Positions 6,409-40,022 of a stretch of DNA of 50,554 bases are shown piece by piece; within the stretch, counting starts at the first letter, position 1; each line of letters starts with the position of its first letter. Position numbers and translations under genes: made by a program. A model generated the notes under the pieces. The model saw nothing but the letters and a program-made list of their open reading frames with translations, ran no database searches and was not told the DNA's origin. This DNA comes from an uncultured Candidatus Peribacteria bacterium (GTDB lineage Bacteria; Patescibacteriota; Gracilibacteria; UBA1369): positions 1-50,554 of the forward strand of contig CAZOQT010000005.1 of NCBI GenBank assembly GCA_964582265.1. The letters run 5' to 3'.

Positions 6409-7593
6409 ATGGCAGACGTATTCCAAAGAACGAAACCACACGTAAATGTGGGAACCATCGGCCACGTAGACCATGGTAAAACAACCTTAACAGCAGCAAT
6501 TACTATGTATTGCGCTCAAAAAGGTATGGCAAAGGCTCGTAGGTATGATGAAATTGATAACGCTCCAGAAGAAAAGGCGCGTGGTATTACAATTGCTACT
6601 TCTCACCAGGAATACGAAACTGACAAACGTCACTATGCTCACGTTGACTGTCCAGGGCATGCCGATTACGTTAAGAACATGATTACTGGTGCCGCTCAGA
6701 TGGATGGCGCTATCCTTGTATGTTCAGCTGCAGATGGTCCGATGCCACAAACTCGTGAACACATTCTTTTGGCTAAGCAGGTGAATGTTCCATACATTGT
6801 AGTATTCATGAACAAGATGGACATGGCTGATCCAGAAATTGCAGAACTTTCTGAAATGGAAGTTCGTGAACTTCTTAAGAAGTACGGCTTTGATGGAGAC
6901 AAAACTCCATTTATTAAAGGCTCTGCTCTTAAGGCTATGGAAAACCCAACTGATCCAGAAGCTACAAAGTGCATCCAGGATCTTCTTGACGCTTTGGATA
7001 GCTACATCCCAGAACCAAAACGTGACTTGGACAAGCCACTTTTGATGCCAGTTGAAGATGTATTCTCAATTAAAGGACGTGGTACAGTAGCTACAGGCCG
7101 TATTGAAGCAGGTATTGTTAAGATCAATGATGAAGTTGAAATTGTTGGTATCGTTCCAACACGCAAGGTAGTTGTAACTGGTGTTGAAATGTTCAAGAAA
7201 TTACTCGATCAAGGTCAAGCTGGTGATAACGTAGGATTACTTCTCCGTGGTATTGAACGCGAAGAAATCGTTCGTGGTCAGGTAATCTGTAAACCAGGTT
7301 CAATCAAACCTCATACTAAATTTGAAGGTGAAGTATATATTTTGACTAAAGAAGAAGGTGGACGTCATACTCCATTCTTCAAGGGTTACAAACCTCAGTT
7401 CTATGTTCGTACAACAGACGTAACTGGTGCTGTAGAACTTCCAGCTGGTGTTGAAATGGTTATGCCAGGTGATAACATCAAGATGGTTGTTACACTTGGA
7501 GCTCCAGTAGCTCTTGATGCAGGAACTCGCTTTGCTATCCGCGAAGGCGGACGCACAGTAGGTTCAGGAGTAGTTACTAAGATCGTTGAGTAA
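6409..7593 (+). CDS. tuf: Elongation factor Tu
   Basis: 394 aa with [18 protein letters not shown] and NKMD motifs. Confidence 0.99.
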
Positions 7594-33331: not shown

Positions 33332-34240
33332 CTAAAATTTATGTAATTTACCAACCAGATCACGATGATACTGGCCAAATTCGGTAATTTTACGCGCCCT
33401 ATTATTGTCCACAACCGGGCCCTCTTTACACATTCTTTCACCGTTTGGATCTGTACAGCATTGCCCACAAACCCCAAATCCGCACTTCATGTAGCGCTCA
33501 ATAGAAACCTGCGCATTAATTTTGGCCGCAAAGCACATATCAGAAATGCGCTTCATCATCATTTCCGGACCACAGGTATACACGCAGTCTATTTTTGCCG
33601 ATTTCACAGCCCTTGCTGCCTTTGCGGATTTAGCAGCCTTATGATCATTAATCAGCTTTTCCAAAATCAGCGTATTGTAGCCTTTTAATCCAACAGATCC
33701 ATCATCGGTCGTGATATGCAATTTCACGTTCTTTAATTTTTTAATACGATTGATGTAAAGCAAATGTTCTTTACTTCTCGCCCCAATCACAAAATCGACC
33801 TTACAGCCGGCTTTAACTGCAGTCACAGCCAAATTATAAAGTGGCGCCGCACCATATCCACCCGCCATCATAACCAGGTGTTGTCCCTTTTTAAATTCAC
33901 CGCCATCTCCAGCCGTAAAATGAGTACCATATGGACCTCGCACCCCTACCAAATCACCAGGCTTTAAAGTGTGCATGCGTTTAGAAAAAGGCCCAACCGC
34001 AAACATTGTCACCCAGAATTCTTTGCCATCATCATAAGCAATACTCATCGGCTTTTCATCTACACGCGGCAACCACAAATTAACAAATTGGCCAGGCTTT
34101 GACGGCTTACCATCCGCCGTTTTTAATTCATGCTTGAACACGAAAGTCTTAACGTAAGGCGTTTCTGTGATGATTTTTTTAATTGGGATTGATTTGGGGA
34201 TGTCGAATTTTTTTGAAATTTGAGCCATTGTTTCGCGCAT
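33332..34240 (-). CDS. pyrK: Dihydroorotate dehydrogenase electron-transfer subunit
   Basis: 302 aa, FAD/NAD-binding fold (MMAGGYGAAPLY) and C-terminal 2Fe-2S motif CGFGVCGQCC. Adjacent to class 1B pyrD. Confidence 0.88.
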   Translation of the reverse strand: MRETMAQISKKFDIPKSIPIKKIITETPYVKTFVFKHELKTADGKPSKPGQFVNLWLPRVDEKPMSIAYDDGKEFWVTMFAVGPFSKRMHTLKPGDLVGVRGPYGTHFTAGDGGEFKKGQHLVMMAGGYGAAPLYNLAVTAVKAGCKVDFVIGARSKEHLLYINRIKKLKNVKLHITTDDGSVGLKGYNTLILEKLINDHKAAKSAKAARAVKSAKIDCVYTCGPEMMMKRISDMCFAAKINAQVSIERYMKCGFGVCGQCCTDPNGERMCKEGPVVDNNRARKITEFGQYHRDLVGKLHKF

Positions 34241-35193
34241 TAATTAAAATTCTGAAATTTTTTGGAGTAATCGCCGTTATGAGCTGTTCCACGCAGTTCA
34301 TCCAAATTCTTGATTTTATGCGCTTTACCCCACTGTTTCATTTCATTGGCGATCAGCCCAAAACAGGTTATATCTCGATAATAAACCGCTGTTCCAACGC
34401 CCACCAAAGTCGCACCAACCATAATCATTTCAAGAGCGTCTTCACCGGTTAAAATGCCGCCTGTTCCAATAATTGGAGTCTTTGGCACAGCTTTGTGAAT
34501 GTCGTAAACAGCCTTAATTGCTATTGGTTTGATGGCTGGACCGCTCACTCCGCCAACTTTGTTCGCCAAAATCGGTTCGCGGGTTTCCAGGTCTATCATA
34601 AGCCCAGGACCGACTGTGTTTATGGCTGTAATTCCATCCGCGCCGGCATCAACAACCGCGCGCGCAATTTCGGCAATGTTTAATACGTTTGGGCTTAACT
34701 TGATCACAATCGGCAATTTTGTGCGCGCACGAACCGCTGCAGTTACCGCAGCCGCATCCACTCTGGAACAGGAAAATGGCTTACCGAATTCATCTTCCAC
34801 ATTCGGACAAGAAATATTCACTTCAATAATGTCTGGCTTAAGCGCAGAAACCATTTCTGCCACTTCCGCAAAATGTTCAATTTTAGATTCAACAATATTG
34901 GCAATTAATGGAGCGGGTTTTTCTTTAAGATACTCACCAATTTCAATATGAGCCTTTTCTATTCCCGCATCCGGAAGCCCAACCGCATTAAGCATGTAAT
35001 GGTCGTTGGCAATAATAACCGGATTAGGATGCCCCTGATGCCCCTCTCGCCAAATTGATTTAGTGGTTACACCGCCCGCGCCGCCCTTTTTGACAACGCT
35101 TTTTAGGCTTGCACCGGTCACACCCAAAACACCAGATGCCAACACCAGAGGGTTCTTAAACTTCACGCCGCAAAAAGTAGTTTCTAGGTTCAT
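34240..35193 (-). CDS. pyrD: Dihydroorotate dehydrogenase, class 1B catalytic subunit
   Basis: 317 aa, FKNPLVLASG, NISCPN and IIGTGGI motifs. Its stop overlaps the pyrK start by 1 nt. Confidence 0.93.
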   Translation of the reverse strand: MNLETTFCGVKFKNPLVLASGVLGVTGASLKSVVKKGGAGGVTTKSIWREGHQGHPNPVIIANDHYMLNAVGLPDAGIEKAHIEIGEYLKEKPAPLIANIVESKIEHFAEVAEMVSALKPDIIEVNISCPNVEDEFGKPFSCSRVDAAAVTAAVRARTKLPIVIKLSPNVLNIAEIARAVVDAGADGITAINTVGPGLMIDLETREPILANKVGGVSGPAIKPIAIKAVYDIHKAVPKTPIIGTGGILTGEDALEMIMVGATLVGVGTAVYYRDITCFGLIANEMKQWGKAHKIKNLDELRGTAHNGDYSKKFQNFN

Positions 35194-35333
35194 GGATTTT
35201 GCTTATAAATTGGCACTGCCCCGCGCGCATTTATTTAAGCACTTTTACGAGCCCAACTCAATGGTAGATTTTAGAAATTTTTAATGAAGAAAGCTTGATT
35301 TGGAATTAATGAAATCACCTGCTTTTCTTAATA

Positions 35334-35361
35334 TTGACATATAATTTAAATATGGTACAAT
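35334..35361 (+). promoter_or_regulatory. Near-consensus sigma70 promoter with extended -10 (TTGACA-N16-TGgTACAAT)
   Basis: TTGACA at 35334-35339, TG at 35353-35354, TACAAT at 35356-35361. Faces the high-GC ORF. Confidence 0.55.
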
Positions 35362-35367
35362 CCCAAC

Positions 35368-35640
35368 TCTGTTATGCTTTAACAGCATGCAGAAGCCTTG
35401 CTCTTTAAAAATTGAGAGTTTTGAGATGCTTTCTAGCTTATGTGAGCAGCAAATTGCCAAATTCATTTGGTAGCTTGTTGCTCACACAAGTTCTACGAAA
35501 GGAAAATACTTGTGACGAGCGATGATCGCATTTGCGACCGGTTTCGCACTTCCGCGATCTCTCATTACATGAATGTTACTAACTGGACCCTAGCCGCTTG
35601 ACGTGGCTGGGAGGAATTCATTCCGAACGAGGACAATGAC
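35368..35640 (+). ncRNA. Hairpin-rich ~270-nt leader or candidate ncRNA upstream of the high-GC ORF
   Basis: Long imperfect hairpin at 35441-35486 (TGTGAGCA...CCAAA-ttca-TTTGG...TGCTCACA). ACAAGT/ACTTGT stem at 35486-35513. Nested GATCGC[GCGA-ccggtt-TCGC]GCGATC at 35524-35559. No convincing ORF. Confidence 0.4.
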
Positions 35641-36102
35641 ATGAAGACCATGACCGTTCCCGAGGTGATTCTGGCTGTCTCGACCGACTGCGGCGCATTC
35701 TTCGGCGAGGCGCGCTGCATGAGGATCAAGCCGGATGGCGAGATCCTCTACATCGACGAGACGGACGTCGGCACCATCAAGCTGTCCCAGGTGTCCGGCG
35801 TCGACATCCGCGCGGCATACGTCCTCGAGGACGGCCGCGCAGGTCTCGCGATCTTCGGTCGGATCACGGTCGACCTCCTGCCGCTCGTGCGCGAGATCGC
35901 CAAGAACGCCGGCAAGTACGGCAAGTTCAAGATCTGGAGGTGCTCGGCGCGCCGGACCACCGAGGTCACGCTCGTGACGACCAACGAGACCAGCGCGTTG
36001 TTGACCAAGAACTATTCTGACGTGGATCTCGCGTTCGACAACAACGGGAACCCCCAGTTGGAGGCCTTCGACAAGGAAGGAAACCTCGTCACGCTGTTCT
36101 AG
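35641..36102 (+). CDS. Orphan 153-aa protein of foreign (high-GC) composition, function unknown
   Basis: 26 of the first 30 codons end in G/C (tuf: 12 of 30). A hand-counted 60-nt sample is 37/60 G+C, against 24/60 in pyrD. GAGGA Shine-Dalgarno at 35629-35633, 7 nt before the ATG. A GC-rich terminator hairpin follows. Confidence 0.75.
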   Translation: MKTMTVPEVILAVSTDCGAFFGEARCMRIKPDGEILYIDETDVGTIKLSQVSGVDIRAAYVLEDGRAGLAIFGRITVDLLPLVREIAKNAGKYGKFKIWRCSARRTTEVTLVTTNETSALLTKNYSDVDLAFDNNGNPQLEAFDKEGNLVTLF

Positions 36103-36118
36103 ACGACGCGCTGCCACG

Positions 36119-36155
36119 GACGCCGCGGGGGCGACGCAATCGTCCCCGCGGCGGA
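36119..36155 (+). terminator. GC-rich stem-loop after the high-GC ORF
   Basis: CGCCGCGGGG(gc)GACG-caat-CGTCCCCGCGGCG: 13 bp with one bulge and no T-run, in the style of high-GC organisms. Confidence 0.6.
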
Positions 36156-36179
36156 CCGCCGCACTCTCAACTCTCAATT

Positions 36180-36450
36180 AAATGCTTTCGTTAAACCCCT
36201 GCTTGCAGGAGGTGACTACGAGAGGGCTAGGCATCGCGTCCCCCATACCGAAAGGTCGTGGGGGCGCTTTGCTATGCACCCCACCCACACAAGTTTTGCA
36301 CAACTTTCAAAAATGGCTGTCGGGGGTTTTTACAGCAGCGCTAAAAATGGCAAGCAAAAGCCACAAGCACACATGCCGCGCGCATGCGCACAAATACTCG
36401 AGAATACAAACCCATGTACACCACATGCACACATACCAGCTCAACTAAAA
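36180..36450. ncRNA. Structured, GC-elevated non-coding segment (candidate ncRNA; strand undetermined)
   Basis: GCG(t)CCCCCA-[ACC-GAAA-GGT]-TGGGGGCGC at 36237-36268, with a GNRA loop. AAGTT/AACTT hairpin at 36291-36306. GCTGT-cgggggttttt-ACAGC at 36316-36336. CA/CATG-rich near-palindrome at 36367-36391. Confidence 0.35.
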
Positions 36451-36457
36451 TATAACC

Positions 36458-36793
36458 TTACTCTTTATTAATCTTATCTTCCAAATCCCTCAACAACTCA
36501 TCCGCCCTACGAACATTTTCCGCTGAAAATGGCGCATTCAAAACACCCACAACCTGATCCAGCAATTTACCAATTATCTCGCCAGGTTCAATACCAACAA
36601 CACTTTCTACACCCTGCTTCTTTGCCAAAGAATCATAAACCCTAGCTAATCTCTTTCTTAAATCCTTATCAATCTGACCAAATTCATCAATTTCCCTAGC
36701 TTCATCCTTTACAAAAACACCTGATCCTTCCTCTGCACTTGCCATATCTTCCAAGACTTCATCATCACAAACAGCGCCATCGATTACTGACAT
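36458..36793 (-). CDS. Hypothetical acidic protein, 111 aa
   Basis: Host-like composition, upstream of and co-oriented with the island. No family recognised. Confidence 0.5.
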   Translation of the reverse strand: MSVIDGAVCDDEVLEDMASAEEGSGVFVKDEAREIDEFGQIDKDLRKRLARVYDSLAKKQGVESVVGIEPGEIIGKLLDQVVGVLNAPFSAENVRRADELLRDLEDKINKE

Positions 36794-38870: not shown

Positions 38871-40022
38871 ATGCAAAACCCATTTATATCAGTCAGAAAC
38901 GGTTTCATAAAATTTGGGTATAAAACTTTTCTTAAACCAATTTTCTTTAAACGTGATCCAGAAGACGTACACGACTCCATGAATAAAGTTGGTAAAATTT
39001 TAGGCAGATTTGCCTTGGGCAGAGGCTTAACCAAAGCCATGTTTTATTATAAAAACCCAGCACTTGAACAAAATATTCTTGGCATTAAATTTCCAAATCC
39101 AATCGGACTGGCAGCGGGATTCGACAAAAACGCCGAACTTACCCAGATCTTGCCGGAAGTCGGTTTTGGCTTTGAAGAAGTTGGATCCATAACCGGTGAA
39201 TACTGTGCCGGAAACCCAAAACCTCGTCTTTGGCGTTTAAAAAAATCAAAAAGTTTAGTAGTTTACTATGGCCTTAAAAACGACGGCTGCGAAAAGATTT
39301 CCGCCCGCCTTGCAGAGCAAATCCAAAAACGGCCTTTTAAATTTCCGGTAGGAATCAGCATTGCCAAAACCAACAACGCTCAAACTTGCGAAACGCAGGC
39401 CGGAATAAAAGATTACGTTAAGGCTTTCAAGCACTTCACGCATATTGGCGACTACATCACAATCAACATCAGCTGCCCAAACGCCTTTGGCGGCGAACCT
39501 TTTACAGAACCACATAAACTGGAAGCGCTCTTAACCGAAACCGATAAAATTCCTTGCAACAAACCAATTTTCTTAAAAATTTCGCCGGATCTATCAAAGG
39601 AACAACTCGATCAAATTTTACAAATTGTCAGCAAACACAAAGTTGACGGCATCATCTGCGCCAACCTCACCAAAAAAAGAGAAAACCATAAAATTCACAA
39701 AGATGATTTTATGCCAGAAGTGGGAGGTATAAGCGGAAAAGTGCAGGAAGATCTTTCTAACGAACAGATCCGTTACATTTATAAAAAGAGCCACACGCTA
39801 CATCGCAAACTTGTGGTTATTGGCTGCGGCGGGGTTTTTACGGCCGAAGATGCCTATAAAAAAATAAAAGCCGGCGCGTCACTTATCCAGCTCATTACCG
39901 GTATGATTTACGAAGGGCCACAAGCCATCAGCAGCATCAATATGGGACTCGCTGAACTGCTTAAAAAAGACGGGTATAAAAATATCAGCGAAGCCGTAGG
40001 GACCTTTGAGGTTGGCCATTAA
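38871..40022 (+). CDS. pyrD: Dihydroorotate dehydrogenase, class 2 (quinone-type)
   Basis: 383 aa. N-terminal extension, then GLAAGFDKNAE, EVGSITG..CAGNPKPRLWRL, NISCPN and GCGGVFTAEDAY motifs typical of class 2. Confidence 0.88.
   Translation: MQNPFISVRNGFIKFGYKTFLKPIFFKRDPEDVHDSMNKVGKILGRFALGRGLTKAMFYYKNPALEQNILGIKFPNPIGLAAGFDKNAELTQILPEVGFGFEEVGSITGEYCAGNPKPRLWRLKKSKSLVVYYGLKNDGCEKISARLAEQIQKRPFKFPVGISIAKTNNAQTCETQAGIKDYVKAFKHFTHIGDYITINISCPNAFGGEPFTEPHKLEALLTETDKIPCNKPIFLKISPDLSKEQLDQILQIVSKHKVDGIICANLTKKRENHKIHKDDFMPEVGGISGKVQEDLSNEQIRYIYKKSHTLHRKLVVIGCGGVFTAEDAYKKIKAGASLIQLITGMIYEGPQAISSINMGLAELLKKDGYKNISEAVGTFEVGH
40001..40013 (+). repeat. 13-nt hairpin unit GACCTTTGAGGTT (end of class-2 pyrD)
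   Basis: Read directly. Same family as the units at 30356 and 41474. Confidence 0.7.

What the first reader, a model, noticed from the sequence alone, without database searches (positions are those of the whole stretch)
35281..36457. Compositionally foreign ~1.2-kb island inside the pyrimidine gene cluster
Between pyrD (class 1B) and a host-like acidic-protein gene lies a 1.26-kb stretch that breaks the rules of the rest of the window. Other spacers are mostly under 120 nt, whereas this one holds an organised unit. The unit comprises a near-consensus promoter, a ~270-nt hairpin-dense leader, a 153-aa ORF of about 62% GC with its own Shine-Dalgarno, a GC-rich T-less terminator hairpin, and a second ~270-nt structured segment. 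I recognise no transposase, integrase or known defence gene, and no Rfam-like RNA signature. It could be a very recent acquisition from a high-GC organism, which is notable because episymbiotic CPR bacteria can live on high-GC hosts. It could also be a small autonomous RNA-plus-protein cassette of unknown function, or an assembly chimera.
Basis: partly seen in the sequence, partly recalled or inferred. Interest (0 to 1): 0.85.

Follow-up and report, generated by a model that had tools for sequence, protein, structure and literature searches.

The report
GC-rich orphan gene in fold-back RNA
A small, self-promoted gene unit in an AT-rich CPR bacterium encodes an orphan protein with codon usage opposite to its host's, wrapped in conserved RNA structures; it is an old resident kept GC-rich by an unknown force, not a recent import or an assembly error.

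Summary
A ~0.95-kb unit (35334-36275, + strand) lies between pyrD and an orphan acidic-protein gene in a Peregrinibacteria/Peribacteria chromosome. It has a near-consensus promoter, a 273-nt structured leader, a 153-aa ORF (GC3 0.90 vs 0.24-0.48 in host genes), a GC-rich hairpin and a structured 3'UTR.

It is not a chimera: four independent assemblies carry it, and three (L004, L005, L006) span both junctions.

It is not a recent import. Three lineages carry it at the same site, and its synonymous divergence (0.75) matches neighbouring host genes (0.69-0.71). No donor or homolog exists in ~15 billion proteins.

GC3 has not decayed. Four-fold sites are nearly saturated for G<->C swaps, so G/C-ending codons were actively maintained.

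The UTRs (94% identical) are more conserved than the ORF (71%; dN/dS ~0.45). A 16-17 bp leader-to-3'UTR helix encloses the ORF in every lineage.

A related unit in the closest named genome (L008) sits at the same locus in the opposite orientation, next to a candidate defence gene. Its leader is homologous; its ORF and 3'UTR are only analogous.

Best reading: an autonomous accessory RNA-plus-protein module with a hok-like fold-back mRNA. Function is unknown and the compositional maintenance is unexplained.

The parts
35334..35361 (+). Sigma-70-type promoter: TTGACA, 16-nt spacer, TG-n-TACAAT. The predicted transcription start is near 35368.
   Evidence: 11 of 12 consensus matches with TG. Conserved in L005 (TTGACA...TGGTAAAAT, 32/34 identical). 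An equivalent TTGACA-17-TGaTACTGT precedes the L008 unit.
35368..35393 (+). H1, the 5'-terminal hairpin (UCUGU...GCAGA).
   Evidence: Folds independently in the window, L005 and L008. L008 has a larger insert but the same UCUGU/ACAGA closing stem.
35410..35429 (+). 5' strand of the long-range closing helix (AAUUGAGAGUUUUGAGAUGC). It lies inside the most conserved leader block and can alternatively pair locally with the upstream CUCUU.
   Evidence: Inverted repeat I4. Paired with 36161-36179 in the full-length MFE folds of the window, L005 and L008, with pair probabilities 0.9-1.0. Duplex energy -22.1 kcal/mol, matched by 2 of 1000 shuffles. The local alternative pairing is seen.
35435..35492 (+). 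H2, a large leader hairpin of about 26 bp.
   Evidence: Inverted repeat I1. dG is -30.6 (window), -30.9 (L005) and -44.0 (L008). The window-L005 differences in the apical stem are G.U<->G-C and C-G<->U.G changes that keep pairing on the + strand.
35589..35611 (+). H4, the pre-ORF hairpin (CCCUAGCCG...UGGCUGGG).
   Evidence: Invariant in the window, L001 and L005. An equivalent hairpin of different sequence sits upstream of the L008 ORF, with 2 compensatory and 3 wobble changes in the RNAalifold columns.
35629..35633 (+). Shine-Dalgarno GAGGA, 7 nt before the ATG.
   Evidence: Read directly from the sequence. GAGGA is kept in L001 and L005, and L008 has GGAG. In the ensemble it is partly paired in the window and L005 (P about 0.5) and strongly paired to a 3'UTR CCUCC in L008 (P about 0.9).
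35641..36102 (+). ORF of 153 aa: an orphan, soluble, mildly acidic protein with extreme G/C-ending codon usage.
   Evidence: GC by codon position is 0.55/0.40/0.90. dN/dS is 0.44-0.51 among three alleles of 153-154 aa, with a 3-nt indel. Codon usage mirrors the host's: AAG 31/31, GAG 0.87. pI is 5.05 and there is no transmembrane segment. No family or structure match (104/108).
35590..36177 (-). Codon-aligned antisense ORF (195 aa). It is a by-product of the sense ORF, not a gene.
   Evidence: It stays open because the sense ORF has no TTA, CTA or TCA codons. Its position 1 is the sense position 3. Gene callers picked this frame in L004, L005 and L006.
36117..36158 (+). H5, the GC-rich post-ORF hairpin with no U-tract.
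   Evidence: 14-bp core (I6). dG is -33 to -37 in the window clade, and there is an analogous -42 kcal/mol hairpin after the L008 ORF. 96% identical between the window and L005. No intrinsic terminator is called.
36161..36179 (+). 3' strand of the long-range closing helix (GCACUCUCAACUCUCAAUU).
   Evidence: In L005 a C->U change gives a G.U pair and an extra A shortens the bulge. In L008 the 3'UTR, otherwise unalignable, carries AAAUCUCUCAUUUUCA matched to its own leader.
36195..36213 (+). H6, a small hairpin with a CUUG loop.
   Evidence: L004 carries C36206U, which keeps the pair as G.U. L008 has a 12-bp hairpin with a UUUG loop at the equivalent place.
36230..36273 (+). H7, a hairpin with a GAAA tetraloop. 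It lies in the 100%-invariant core (about 36190-36280).
   Evidence: Invariant in five copies. The analogous L008 hairpin shows G-C/C-G swaps in RNAalifold columns. However, a covariance model of H6 plus H7 finds L008 only at E 0.78.
36277..36457 (.). Distal trailer. It is locus backbone rather than part of the unit, and probably serves as the 3' region of the acidic gene on the - strand.
   Evidence: 36277-36325 matches the reverse complement of L008 3785-3835 (40 of 48 nt; z 3.3 against shuffles), so it keeps its orientation relative to pyrC while the unit is inverted. 36326-36457 has no counterpart in L008.

Best explanation
The island is a self-contained accessory gene module that has long resided in one small clade of Peregrinibacteria/Peribacteria (CPR).

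A strong constitutive-type promoter drives a ~0.9-kb RNA. Its conserved, heavily structured 5' and 3' untranslated regions fold back on each other: a 16-17 bp leader-to-3'UTR helix closes off the whole coding region. The coding region specifies a fast-evolving, soluble, ~150-aa orphan protein.

The most likely working principle is a fold-back-gated mRNA, the logic known from hok-type mRNAs. The closed full-length form would be stable and poorly translated. A local alternative pairing of the same leader motif, or 3' processing, would open it.

The module sits in a flexible slot of the pyr operon that also takes up defence and toxin-antitoxin genes in the sister genome, and it occurs there in either orientation. 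Its role is therefore most likely in genetic conflict (toxin, defence or addiction type) rather than in pyrimidine metabolism.

The alien base composition is not a relic of recent transfer. It is a maintained property of the coding RNA or DNA: G/C-ending codons, and almost no A/U tracts.

Shown here: the anatomy, independence from assembly, in-place co-divergence, constraint on the UTRs, the closing helix, the maintained GC3, the orphan status and the orientation flip.

Inferred only: gating of translation or stability, the conflict function, and the reason for the composition.
For: - Real and independently assembled.
- Coding: GC3 0.90, dN/dS 0.44-0.51, a 3-nt indel, and conserved start, stop and SD.
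- In-place co-divergence: ORF dS 0.75 against pyrD 0.69 and pyrK 0.71 for the same genome pair.
- Maintained composition: at four-fold sites with the amino acid unchanged there are 17 G<->C differences against 20 unchanged S sites (window-L005). pyrD shows 6 against 46. Polarised third-position changes are S>S 40, S>W 23 and W>S 5, against 11, 60 and 71 in pyrD. A/U runs of at least 4 nt number 0-0.45 per 100 nt, against 4-5.7 in host genes.
- UTR constraint: both UTRs are 94% identical between the window and L005. Host genes are 88-93%, host third positions 68-80%, and the ORF 71%.
- Structure: z -5.75 and -5.29. Homologous hairpins fold independently in every lineage. One-sided changes are G.U-compatible on the + strand.
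- Closing helix: present in the MFE of three lineages, with pair probability 0.9-1.0. Duplex tests give 2, 12 and 15 of 1000 shuffles. The window leader against the L008 3'UTR gives z 0.0, so each 3'UTR matches its own leader.
- L008 unit: same locus, opposite orientation. Leader homology has z 9.2 with 0 of 500 shuffles. Its ORF has GC3 0.83.
- Hotspot context: a KilA-N gene matching PADLOC PDC-S22 (E 1e-126) lies beside the L008 unit, a HigB/HTH pair lies inside the same pyr operon, and L009 has an empty pyrC-pyrD junction.
- hok tac/fbi logic, including a transient local alternative pairing: PMC9841398.
Against: - There is no functional evidence of any kind: no transcript, protein or phenotype data.
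- The protein is not small and hydrophobic like type I toxins.
- No antisense promoter was found.
- SD occlusion is strong only in L008.
- The L008 ORF is not detected by an HMM of the three close alleles, and hhalign is not significant. The L008 3'UTR is not significant by sequence or covariance model. 'Conserved architecture' beyond the leader therefore rests on analogy and on only two deep lineages.
- Neighbour genes differ between lineages (an acidic orphan in the window clade, KilA-N in L008), so guilt by association is weak.
- The ORF RNA is only mildly more structured than synonymous shuffles (z -2.7, -0.1, -2.4, -2.9).
- The evolutionary statistics rest on about 50 four-fold sites, and on NG86, which is ill-suited to extreme composition.
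Confidence: 0.4

Rival explanations
1. The structured RNA is the main product: a large riboregulator or dual-function RNA in the manner of RNAIII or SgrS. The ORF would be a secondary, weakly constrained passenger whose GC-rich sequence serves mainly as a stable, nuclease-resistant spacer inside the scaffold.
For: - The UTRs are more conserved (94%) than the ORF (71%; dN/dS about 0.45).
- The core 36190-36280 is 100% invariant.
- Folding z-scores are strong.
- Composition, rather than sequence, is conserved in the ORF.
- The ORF is nearly free of A/U tracts.
- In L008 the leader is conserved while the ORF is unrecognisable.
Against: - The ORF has stayed open at 148-154 aa, with SD and start codon, in four lineages.
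- dN/dS is below 1 and indels come in multiples of three.
- No Rfam family matches.
- No target complementarity was identified.
Confidence: 0.2
2. This is an ordinary lineage-specific accessory gene with long UTRs. Its composition would reflect an ancient transfer plus a local GC-retaining process, such as GC-biased gene conversion at a recombination hotspot, or repeated allele exchange with an unsampled reservoir that shares the same UTRs.
For: - There are signs of recombination around the locus. L004's trailer carries L001/L005-type SNPs. The acidic gene's dS is 0.10 against 0.7 for its neighbours. There is a SNP cluster in pyrK.
- Three roughly equidistant alleles exist.
- A slight excess of S>W over W>S changes (23 against 5) would fit slow decay.
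Against: - Gene conversion should also raise GC in the adjacent leader, which is 35-44% GC.
- G<->C exchange is near saturation while GC3 stays at 0.83-0.92 in four lineages.
- No reservoir exists in about 15 billion proteins or in the phage, plasmid or viral collections.
Confidence: 0.2
3. This is a very recent horizontal acquisition from a high-GC organism, for example the host of an episymbiotic CPR cell.
For: - The codon usage is typical of a genome of about 65-70% GC.
- The distribution among relatives is patchy, with an empty site in L009.
Against: - The unit is syntenic in three lineages, with dS equal to the host genes.
- It shares an AT-rich promoter and leader with host-like composition.
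- No donor homolog exists anywhere.
- There are no mobility genes, no tRNA and no convincing flanking repeats.
Confidence: 0.04
4. This is an assembly chimera or contamination.
For: The composition changes abruptly. The L001 and L002 contigs are short and of low coverage.
Against: - Both junctions are reproduced at 99-100% identity in independent assemblies from different runs and pipelines (L003, L004, L005, L006).
- The L008-type unit is identical in four further samples.
Confidence: 0.01

Closest known systems
hok-family type I toxin mRNAs (tac/fbi fold-back)
   Same: A long-distance 5'-3' helix encloses the coding region. A local alternative pairing of the 5' element is possible. A stable terminal hairpin follows the ORF. 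The unit has its own strong promoter and sits among accessory genes (PMC9841398).
   Different: The product is a soluble, acidic protein of about 150 aa, not a hydrophobic peptide under 60 aa. No antisense RNA promoter was found. SD sequestration is inconsistent between lineages. The RNA is about 0.9 kb rather than about 0.4 kb. There is no sequence or Rfam similarity.
Dual-function structured RNAs (e.g. Staphylococcus RNAIII; recalled from my own knowledge, not tested here)
   Same: A long, multi-hairpin RNA with long-range helices that also encodes a protein. The non-coding parts are more conserved than the coding part.
   Different: The ORF here takes up half of the RNA and encodes a 150-aa protein. 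No regulatory targets are known. No homology.
Horizontally acquired genomic islets / phage 'morons'
   Same: A compositionally deviant, self-promoted single-gene unit with a terminal hairpin, present patchily at a variable locus next to phage- or defence-type genes.
   Different: It has co-diverged with the host for dS of at least 0.7 without amelioration. It has no donor. Its UTRs are under stronger constraint than the ORF.
IS200-type elements (about 700 bp, a single ORF of about 150 aa, structured ends)
   Same: The size class, a single small ORF flanked by hairpin-rich ends, and occurrence in both orientations.
   Different: There is no Y1/HUH transposase signature: no Pfam hit, and the window protein has no histidine. 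It is single-copy (one copy in the 50-kb window and one at the pyr locus in each related assembly) and is restricted to one locus.

Membership tests
Type I toxin-antitoxin (hok/sok-like) | Small (under about 60 aa) hydrophobic, membrane-active toxin | tested here: not met
   The alleles are 148-154 aa, with pI 4.6-5.4, GRAVY about 0, and no clear 19-residue hydrophobic segment.
Type I toxin-antitoxin (hok/sok-like) | Cis- or trans-encoded antisense RNA antitoxin with its own promoter | tested here: inconclusive
   The consensus scan finds no - strand promoter inside the unit. The scan is crude and CPR promoters are poorly known. No transcript data are available.
Type I toxin-antitoxin (hok/sok-like) | Long-distance 5'-3' fold-back in the full-length mRNA | tested here: met
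   A 16-17 bp helix appears in the MFE and the ensemble of three lineages. Duplex energy beats 985-998 of 1000 shuffles.
Type I toxin-antitoxin (hok/sok-like) | Sequestration of the ribosome-binding site in the closed form | tested here: inconclusive
   In L008 the SD pairs with a 3'UTR CCUCC (P about 0.9). In the window and L005 there is only about 0.5 local pairing.
Recently acquired genomic island | Atypical composition together with evidence of recent arrival: absence from close relatives, an identifiable donor, and little divergence | tested here: not met
   The composition is atypical. But the unit is syntenic in three lineages with dS equal to host genes, and no donor was found.
Recently acquired genomic island | Mobility hallmarks: an integrase or transposase, an adjacent tRNA, flanking direct repeats | tested here: not met
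   There are no tRNAs in the window and no mobility genes among the window's ORFs. Only short repeats at chance level flank the unit, and the right-hand copy is deleted in L005.
IS200/IS605 (Y1 transposase) | TnpA with an HUH motif and catalytic Tyr (Pfam Y1_Tnp) | tested here: not met
   There is no Pfam hit at E<=1 for any allele. The window protein contains no histidine.
Diversity-generating retroelement target | A nearby reverse transcriptase, a TR/VR repeat pair, and adenine-specific variation | tested here: not met
   No internal repeat pair was found. No RT-like gene stands out among the window's ORFs by inspection, though these ORFs were not scanned against Pfam. Variation spreads over the whole ORF and is dominated by G<->C at third positions. 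The ORF is identical between the window and L004 despite SNPs nearby.
Any Rfam RNA family (riboswitches, ribozymes, introns, large ncRNAs such as GOLLD, ROOL or OLE) | A covariance-model match | tested here: not met
   There is no match at gathering score in the window. In 35100-36600 at E<=10 there are only three chance-level hits.
Known anti-phage defence systems (PADLOC) | An HMM match of the protein | tested here: not met
   No hit for any allele at E<=1. Only the neighbouring L008 KilA-N gene matches (PDC-S22).

The most novel reading that the evidence does not exclude
The unit is a previously undescribed kind of RNA-protein element in which selection acts on the base composition of the coding RNA itself. 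An A/U-free, G/C-ending coding core is locked inside a conserved fold-back scaffold.

Two concrete versions are not excluded:

(i) An 'armoured' mRNA, built to survive AU-directed RNA decay or mRNA-interferase toxins and to be translated when ordinary AT-rich host messages are being destroyed. The sister genome has a HigB-type toxin in the same operon.

(ii) A message or gene codon-adapted for expression in a high-GC partner cell of this presumably episymbiotic CPR bacterium.
Probability: 0.15. Interest if true: 0.85.

Novelty: new variant of a known kind. Interest (0 to 1): 0.62.

Why it matters
- Amelioration theory says a foreign-looking gene should drift to the composition of its host. Here a gene has sat in a 40% GC genome for as long as the neighbouring housekeeping genes took to reach dS of about 0.7-1.3. 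It still has GC3 of about 0.9, with its silent sites randomised only between G and C. That requires a strong, position-independent force on nucleic-acid composition in a single ~460-nt stretch, and no standard explanation covers it.
- It is also a caution for island detection. Atypical composition was read as recent transfer, and that inference is wrong here.
- The unit offers a compact, testable example of an mRNA whose UTRs are more constrained than its protein and which encloses its ORF in a 5'-3' helix. It comes from a phylum (CPR) where almost nothing is known about RNA-level regulation or accessory conflict systems.
- There is a practical lesson too. Gene callers pick the antisense frame, or read through the stop, in several public assemblies, so such genes are under-counted in protein databases.

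Tried and rejected
- Protein homology found nothing beyond the loci themselves. This covers two word-indexed searches of 5.8 billion proteins with the ORF, one full HMM scan of 1.84 billion representatives, Pfam, PHROGs, PADLOC and PDB sequences, and phage and plasmid tblastn.
- Structure: two AlphaFold runs gave pLDDT 44 and 47. The Foldseek search against PDB gave nothing (best E 0.07, TM below 0.35).
- DNA motif scans. The invariant 20-mer gave one chance hit inside an unrelated gene in the JGI metagenomes (L007), none in GTDB genomes, and none in viral contigs for two flank motifs. A degenerate leader motif hit one AT-rich phage family with no GC-rich ORF; I judged it unrelated or at most a shared short motif.
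- A covariance model of 3'UTR hairpins H6 and H7 did not significantly recover the L008 copy: not listed with default filters, and E 0.78 with filters off.
- hhalign and an HMM of the three alleles did not detect the L008 ORF. Only a global-alignment shuffle test was positive (z 3.6-4.5). I therefore do not claim ORF homology for L008.
- A weak tblastn hit in L022 lay inside a 1226-aa protein and was rejected as chance.
- I first read 'host flank 100% identical, ORF 62% identical' (L001) as allele swapping or hypermutation. I withdrew this. The flank is only 127 nt of the acidic gene, which is itself anomalously similar between lineages (dS 0.10). The ORF is also unchanged between the window and L004, which argues against ongoing hypermutation.
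- The antisense 195-aa ORF was rejected as a by-product of codon usage.
- The 10-nt direct repeat CACACAAGTT and the 14-nt 'TAC..CCCAACTC' repeats were rejected as target-site duplications. They are at chance level and the right-hand copy is missing in L005.
- A second predicted long-range helix (35393-35401 with 36333-36341) was rejected because it is absent from L008 and lies in backbone sequence.
- The literature search for GC-rich genes in Peregrinibacteria found nothing relevant.
Full report
**1. What is in the sequence**

The window is a 40% GC piece of core chromosome. It carries EF-G/EF-Tu, the S10-spc-alpha ribosomal-protein operons and pyrimidine genes, with no mobile-element genes, tRNAs or Rfam hits.

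Between the start of pyrD class 1B (35193, - strand) and the stop of a 111-aa acidic-protein gene (36458, - strand) lies a 1264-nt spacer. It contains the only strongly GC-rich stretch of the window. The 500-nt GC reaches 0.64 at 35651, against a mean of 0.40 (sd 0.042), and nothing else exceeds 0.51.

On the + strand, opposite to all flanking genes, the spacer holds these features in order:
- A promoter, TTGACA-16-TGgTACAAT (35334-35361; 11 of 12 consensus positions).
- A 273-nt leader that folds far better than shuffles (z -5.75).
- A GAGGA Shine-Dalgarno and a 153-aa ORF (35641-36102).
- A 14-bp GC-rich hairpin without a U-tract (36121-36153).
- A further structured stretch (z -5.29 for 36103-36457).

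**2. It is a real gene with alien codon usage**

GC at codon positions 1, 2 and 3 is 0.55, 0.40 and 0.90. Every host gene in the window has GC3 of 0.24-0.48.

Codon choice is the mirror image of the host's:
- Lys: AAG 31 of 31 (host AAA 0.74).
- Glu: GAG 0.87 (host GAA 0.84).
- ATC 0.88, TTC 0.93, AAC 0.90.
- No TTA, CTA or TCA codons at all.

That last point explains why the codon-aligned antisense frame is open for 195 aa. It is a by-product, yet gene callers chose that frame in three public assemblies.

The coding RNA has almost no A/U tracts: 0-0.45 runs of at least 4 nt per 100 nt, against 4-5.7 in host genes. The protein is soluble and mildly acidic, with no transmembrane segment.

**3. 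It is not an artefact**

- A Logan assembly of another run (L004) spans pyrK, pyrD, the whole spacer and the acidic gene. It is 100% identical from 34167 to 36162.
- L003 covers the right junction.
- L001 and L002 (ENA) carry a second allele joined to the same acidic-gene end.
- L005 (NCBI) and L006 (Logan) carry a third allele, with both junctions, in a genome about 12% diverged.

**4. It is an orphan**

No search found a relative other than the alleles at this locus. This covers the 5.8-billion-protein search (one hit, P0001, the L001 allele), the exhaustive HMM scan of 1.84 billion representatives, Pfam, PHROGs, PADLOC, PDB sequences, and phage and plasmid tblastn. AlphaFold models were of low confidence (pLDDT 44 and 47), and the fold search was accordingly empty.

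**5. Host and distribution**

The nearest named genomes are Peregrinibacteria/Peribacteria MAGs, with pyrD 82-87% identical at the protein level.
- L009 has pyrB-pyrC-pyrD with only about 200 nt between pyrC and pyrD. This is an empty site.
- L010-L012 have a different gene order upstream of pyrD.
- Among 29 relatives' loci, only L008 has a GC-rich block near pyrD.

**6. It is old, not recent**

For the window-L005 genome pair, the Nei-Gojobori dS of the ORF is 0.75. That is the same as flanking pyrD (0.69) and pyrK (0.71). Its dN is ten times higher: 0.33 against 0.02-0.03, giving omega of 0.44. Against L008, the ORF dS is about 1.1 and pyrD is 1.3. The ORF has therefore diverged in place together with its host. 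With no donor anywhere, this contradicts 'very recent acquisition'.

I initially took the L001 contig as evidence for allele swapping, because its host flank is 100% identical while its ORF is 62% identical. That flank is only 127 nt of the acidic gene. The acidic gene is itself unusually similar between lineages (dS 0.10), so the inference is weak. Ongoing hypermutation is also unlikely, since the ORF is unchanged between the window and L004 while SNPs occur on both sides.

**7. The composition is actively maintained**

Despite this divergence, all four alleles keep GC3 of 0.83-0.92.

At four-fold degenerate sites whose amino acid is unchanged, the window-L005 pair shows 17 G<->C differences, 12 S<->W differences and 22 identities out of 51 sites. 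So G and C are close to randomised. In pyrD the same genome pair shows 6 G<->C differences among 154 sites, and the usual S<->W changes dominate.

Polarised third-position changes among the three close alleles are S>S 40, S>W 23, W>S 5 and W>W 0. For pyrD they are 11, 60, 71 and 17.

The modest S>W excess allows some slow decay. The main signal is that third positions have drifted freely, but only within {G,C}. Amino-acid usage is also shifted toward GC-rich codons.

The adjacent leader is AT-rich (35-44% GC), which argues against a simple regional conversion bias.

Caveats: there are only about 50 informative four-fold sites per pair, and NG86 is not designed for such skewed composition.

**8. 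The non-coding parts are the most constrained**

| Region (window vs L005) | Identity |
|---|---|
| 5'UTR | 252/268 = 94% |
| 3'UTR core | 183/194 = 94% |
| Promoter | 32/34 |
| Host genes | 88-93% |
| Host third positions | 68-80% |
| ORF | 71% |

A stretch at about 36190-36280 is invariant in all five copies.

Several of the few substitutions keep base pairs only on the + strand. C36206U in L004 gives a G.U pair in hairpin H6. The window-L005 changes in the apical stem of H2 interconvert G.U/G-C and C-G/U.G.

**9. A helix that encloses the ORF**

The leader motif AAUUGAGAGUUUUGAG (35410-35429) is complementary to 36161-36179, just after the post-ORF hairpin.
- Full-length MFE folds of the window, L005 and L008 transcripts each predict this 16-17 bp helix.
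- Its pair probabilities are 0.9-1.0.
- Duplex energy of the 30-nt leader segment against the 3'UTR beats 998, 988 and 985 of 1000 dinucleotide shuffles, respectively.
- The window leader against the L008 3'UTR is no better than random (z 0.0). So each 3'UTR is matched to its own leader.

The same GAGAG can pair locally with the upstream CUCUU. That gives a possible switch between a co-transcriptional and a full-length fold.

The SD is strongly paired to a 3'UTR CCUCC in L008, but only half-paired locally in the window clade.

**10. The L008 unit**

In the closest named genome, the pyrC-pyrD gap holds a unit with the same layout:
- A promoter, TTGACA-17-TGaTACTGT.
- A leader.
- A 148-aa ORF with GC3 0.83 (host about 0.43).
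- A GC-rich hairpin.
- The 3' helix strand.
- Two further hairpins.

It is identical in four independent samples.

Its leader is significantly homologous to the window's over about 80 nt (score 42 against 19.1 +/- 2.5; z 9.2; 0 of 500 shuffles; the reverse-complement control gives z -0.2). The unit lies on the same strand as pyrC and pyrD, whereas the window's unit is antiparallel to them.

Two flanking segments keep their orientation relative to the pyr genes: the pyrD upstream region (84% over 43 nt) and 36277-36325 against L008 3785-3835 (40 of 48 nt; z 3.3, borderline). The unit from promoter to hairpin H7 (window 35334-36275; L008 3903-4989) has therefore been inverted or inserted independently.

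Beyond the leader the relationship is not demonstrable:
- The 3'UTR is not significant by sequence (z 0.3) or by covariance model (E 0.78).
- The ORF is missed by an HMM of the three alleles and by hhalign.
- Only a global-alignment shuffle test is positive (z 3.6-4.5).

L008 thus carries either a very diverged ortholog or different cargo in a related chassis.

**11. Context**

Next to the L008 unit is a KilA-N gene that matches the PADLOC candidate defence system PDC-S22 (E 1e-126). A HigB-like toxin and HTH pair is inserted between pyrK and pyrE in the same genome.

In the window clade the neighbour is instead an orphan acidic protein, with only one homolog in 5.8 billion proteins.

This part of the pyr operon therefore acts as a landing pad for accessory modules. 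No partner gene is consistently linked to the unit.

**12. Interpretation**

Firmly supported:
- An autonomous, promoter-driven unit that is long resident.
- UTRs under purifying selection that fold back around a weakly constrained orphan ORF.
- A base composition that is actively held far from that of the genome.

Inferred:
- The fold-back gates stability or translation, as in hok-type mRNAs (tac/fbi stem and a transient local alternative pairing; PMC9841398).
- The module serves a conflict-type function.

It is not a member of the type I toxin-antitoxin family, because the protein is large and soluble and no antisense RNA is evident. It is also not an IS200-like element, a DGR target, a known defence protein or any Rfam family (see the membership table).

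Rival readings are that the RNA is the main product, that this is an ordinary accessory gene with a local GC-retaining process, or that an unsampled reservoir exists. These remain open. Recent transfer and chimera are effectively excluded.

**13. Verdict**

This is a real and unusual feature. The 'recent acquisition' and 'chimera' readings do not.

The unexplained core is the compositional maintenance. It would surprise specialists in genome evolution, and it is directly testable with read-level population data and simple recoding experiments.

The element is confined to one small clade, there are only four alleles, and nothing is known of its function. I therefore score interest at 0.62. I class it as a new variant of a known kind (a fold-back, self-promoted accessory gene), with about a 15% chance that it represents something categorically new.

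Noticed in passing
L008:5079-5900 and L091:7581-8182: In the sister genome, a KilA-N gene matching PADLOC candidate defence system PDC-S22 (E 1e-126) lies between the GC-rich unit and pyrD. A HigB-like toxin and HTH_3 pair is inserted between pyrK and pyrE. The pyr operon of this clade is a landing pad for accessory and conflict modules.
   Followed up: partly
window 36458-36793 (-): The acidic 111-aa neighbour is itself an orphan, with one homolog in 5.8 billion proteins. Its dS to L005 is only 0.10, against about 0.7 for pyrD and pyrK. This points to recent exchange or a sweep of the right-hand part of the locus. dN/dS is 0.59.
   Followed up: partly
window 33857-34166: Eight SNPs between the window and L004 cluster in 310 nt of pyrK, whereas the next 2 kb (34167-36162) are identical. 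This looks like a recombination tract.
   Followed up: no
L004:490-1077, L005:1093-1587, L006:1787-2281; P0007: Public gene calls pick the antisense frame of the GC-rich ORF in three assemblies. NCBI reads the L008 ORF through its TGA stop (175 aa, code 25 annotation of a 'Gracilibacteria' MAG). Among 16 long window genes checked, the stops are TAA 12, TAG 2 and TGA 2. Such genes are under-represented in protein databases.
   Followed up: partly
L088:2695-2715, L089:1324-1344(-), L090:7561-7581: One AT-rich phage family (IMG/VR) carries the leader motif TCTTTAAAAATTGAGAG(T/A)TTT just downstream of a promoter. It pairs about 40 nt downstream with AAA(A/T)CTCAC, with a T/A covariation between contigs. 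No GC-rich ORF follows. This may be chance or a shared short regulatory motif.
   Followed up: no
L013:6001-7109: The pyrD match in this Peribacteria MAG is about 160 nt longer than expected and contains a locally GC-rich block (0.57 at 6651-7001). This may be an insertion within pyrD.
   Followed up: no
window 33332-35193 (-) and 38871-40022 (+): The window encodes two dihydroorotate dehydrogenases: a class 1B pyrD with pyrK, and a separate 383-aa class-2-like enzyme on the other strand.
   Followed up: no
window 36031-36052 and 36064-36085: A 22-nt direct repeat inside the ORF encodes two YD-like turns (AFDNNGNP and AFDKEGNLVT) at the C-terminus. The NxGNP motif is the only C-terminal feature shared with the L008 ORF. 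There is no Pfam RHS/YD hit.
   Followed up: partly
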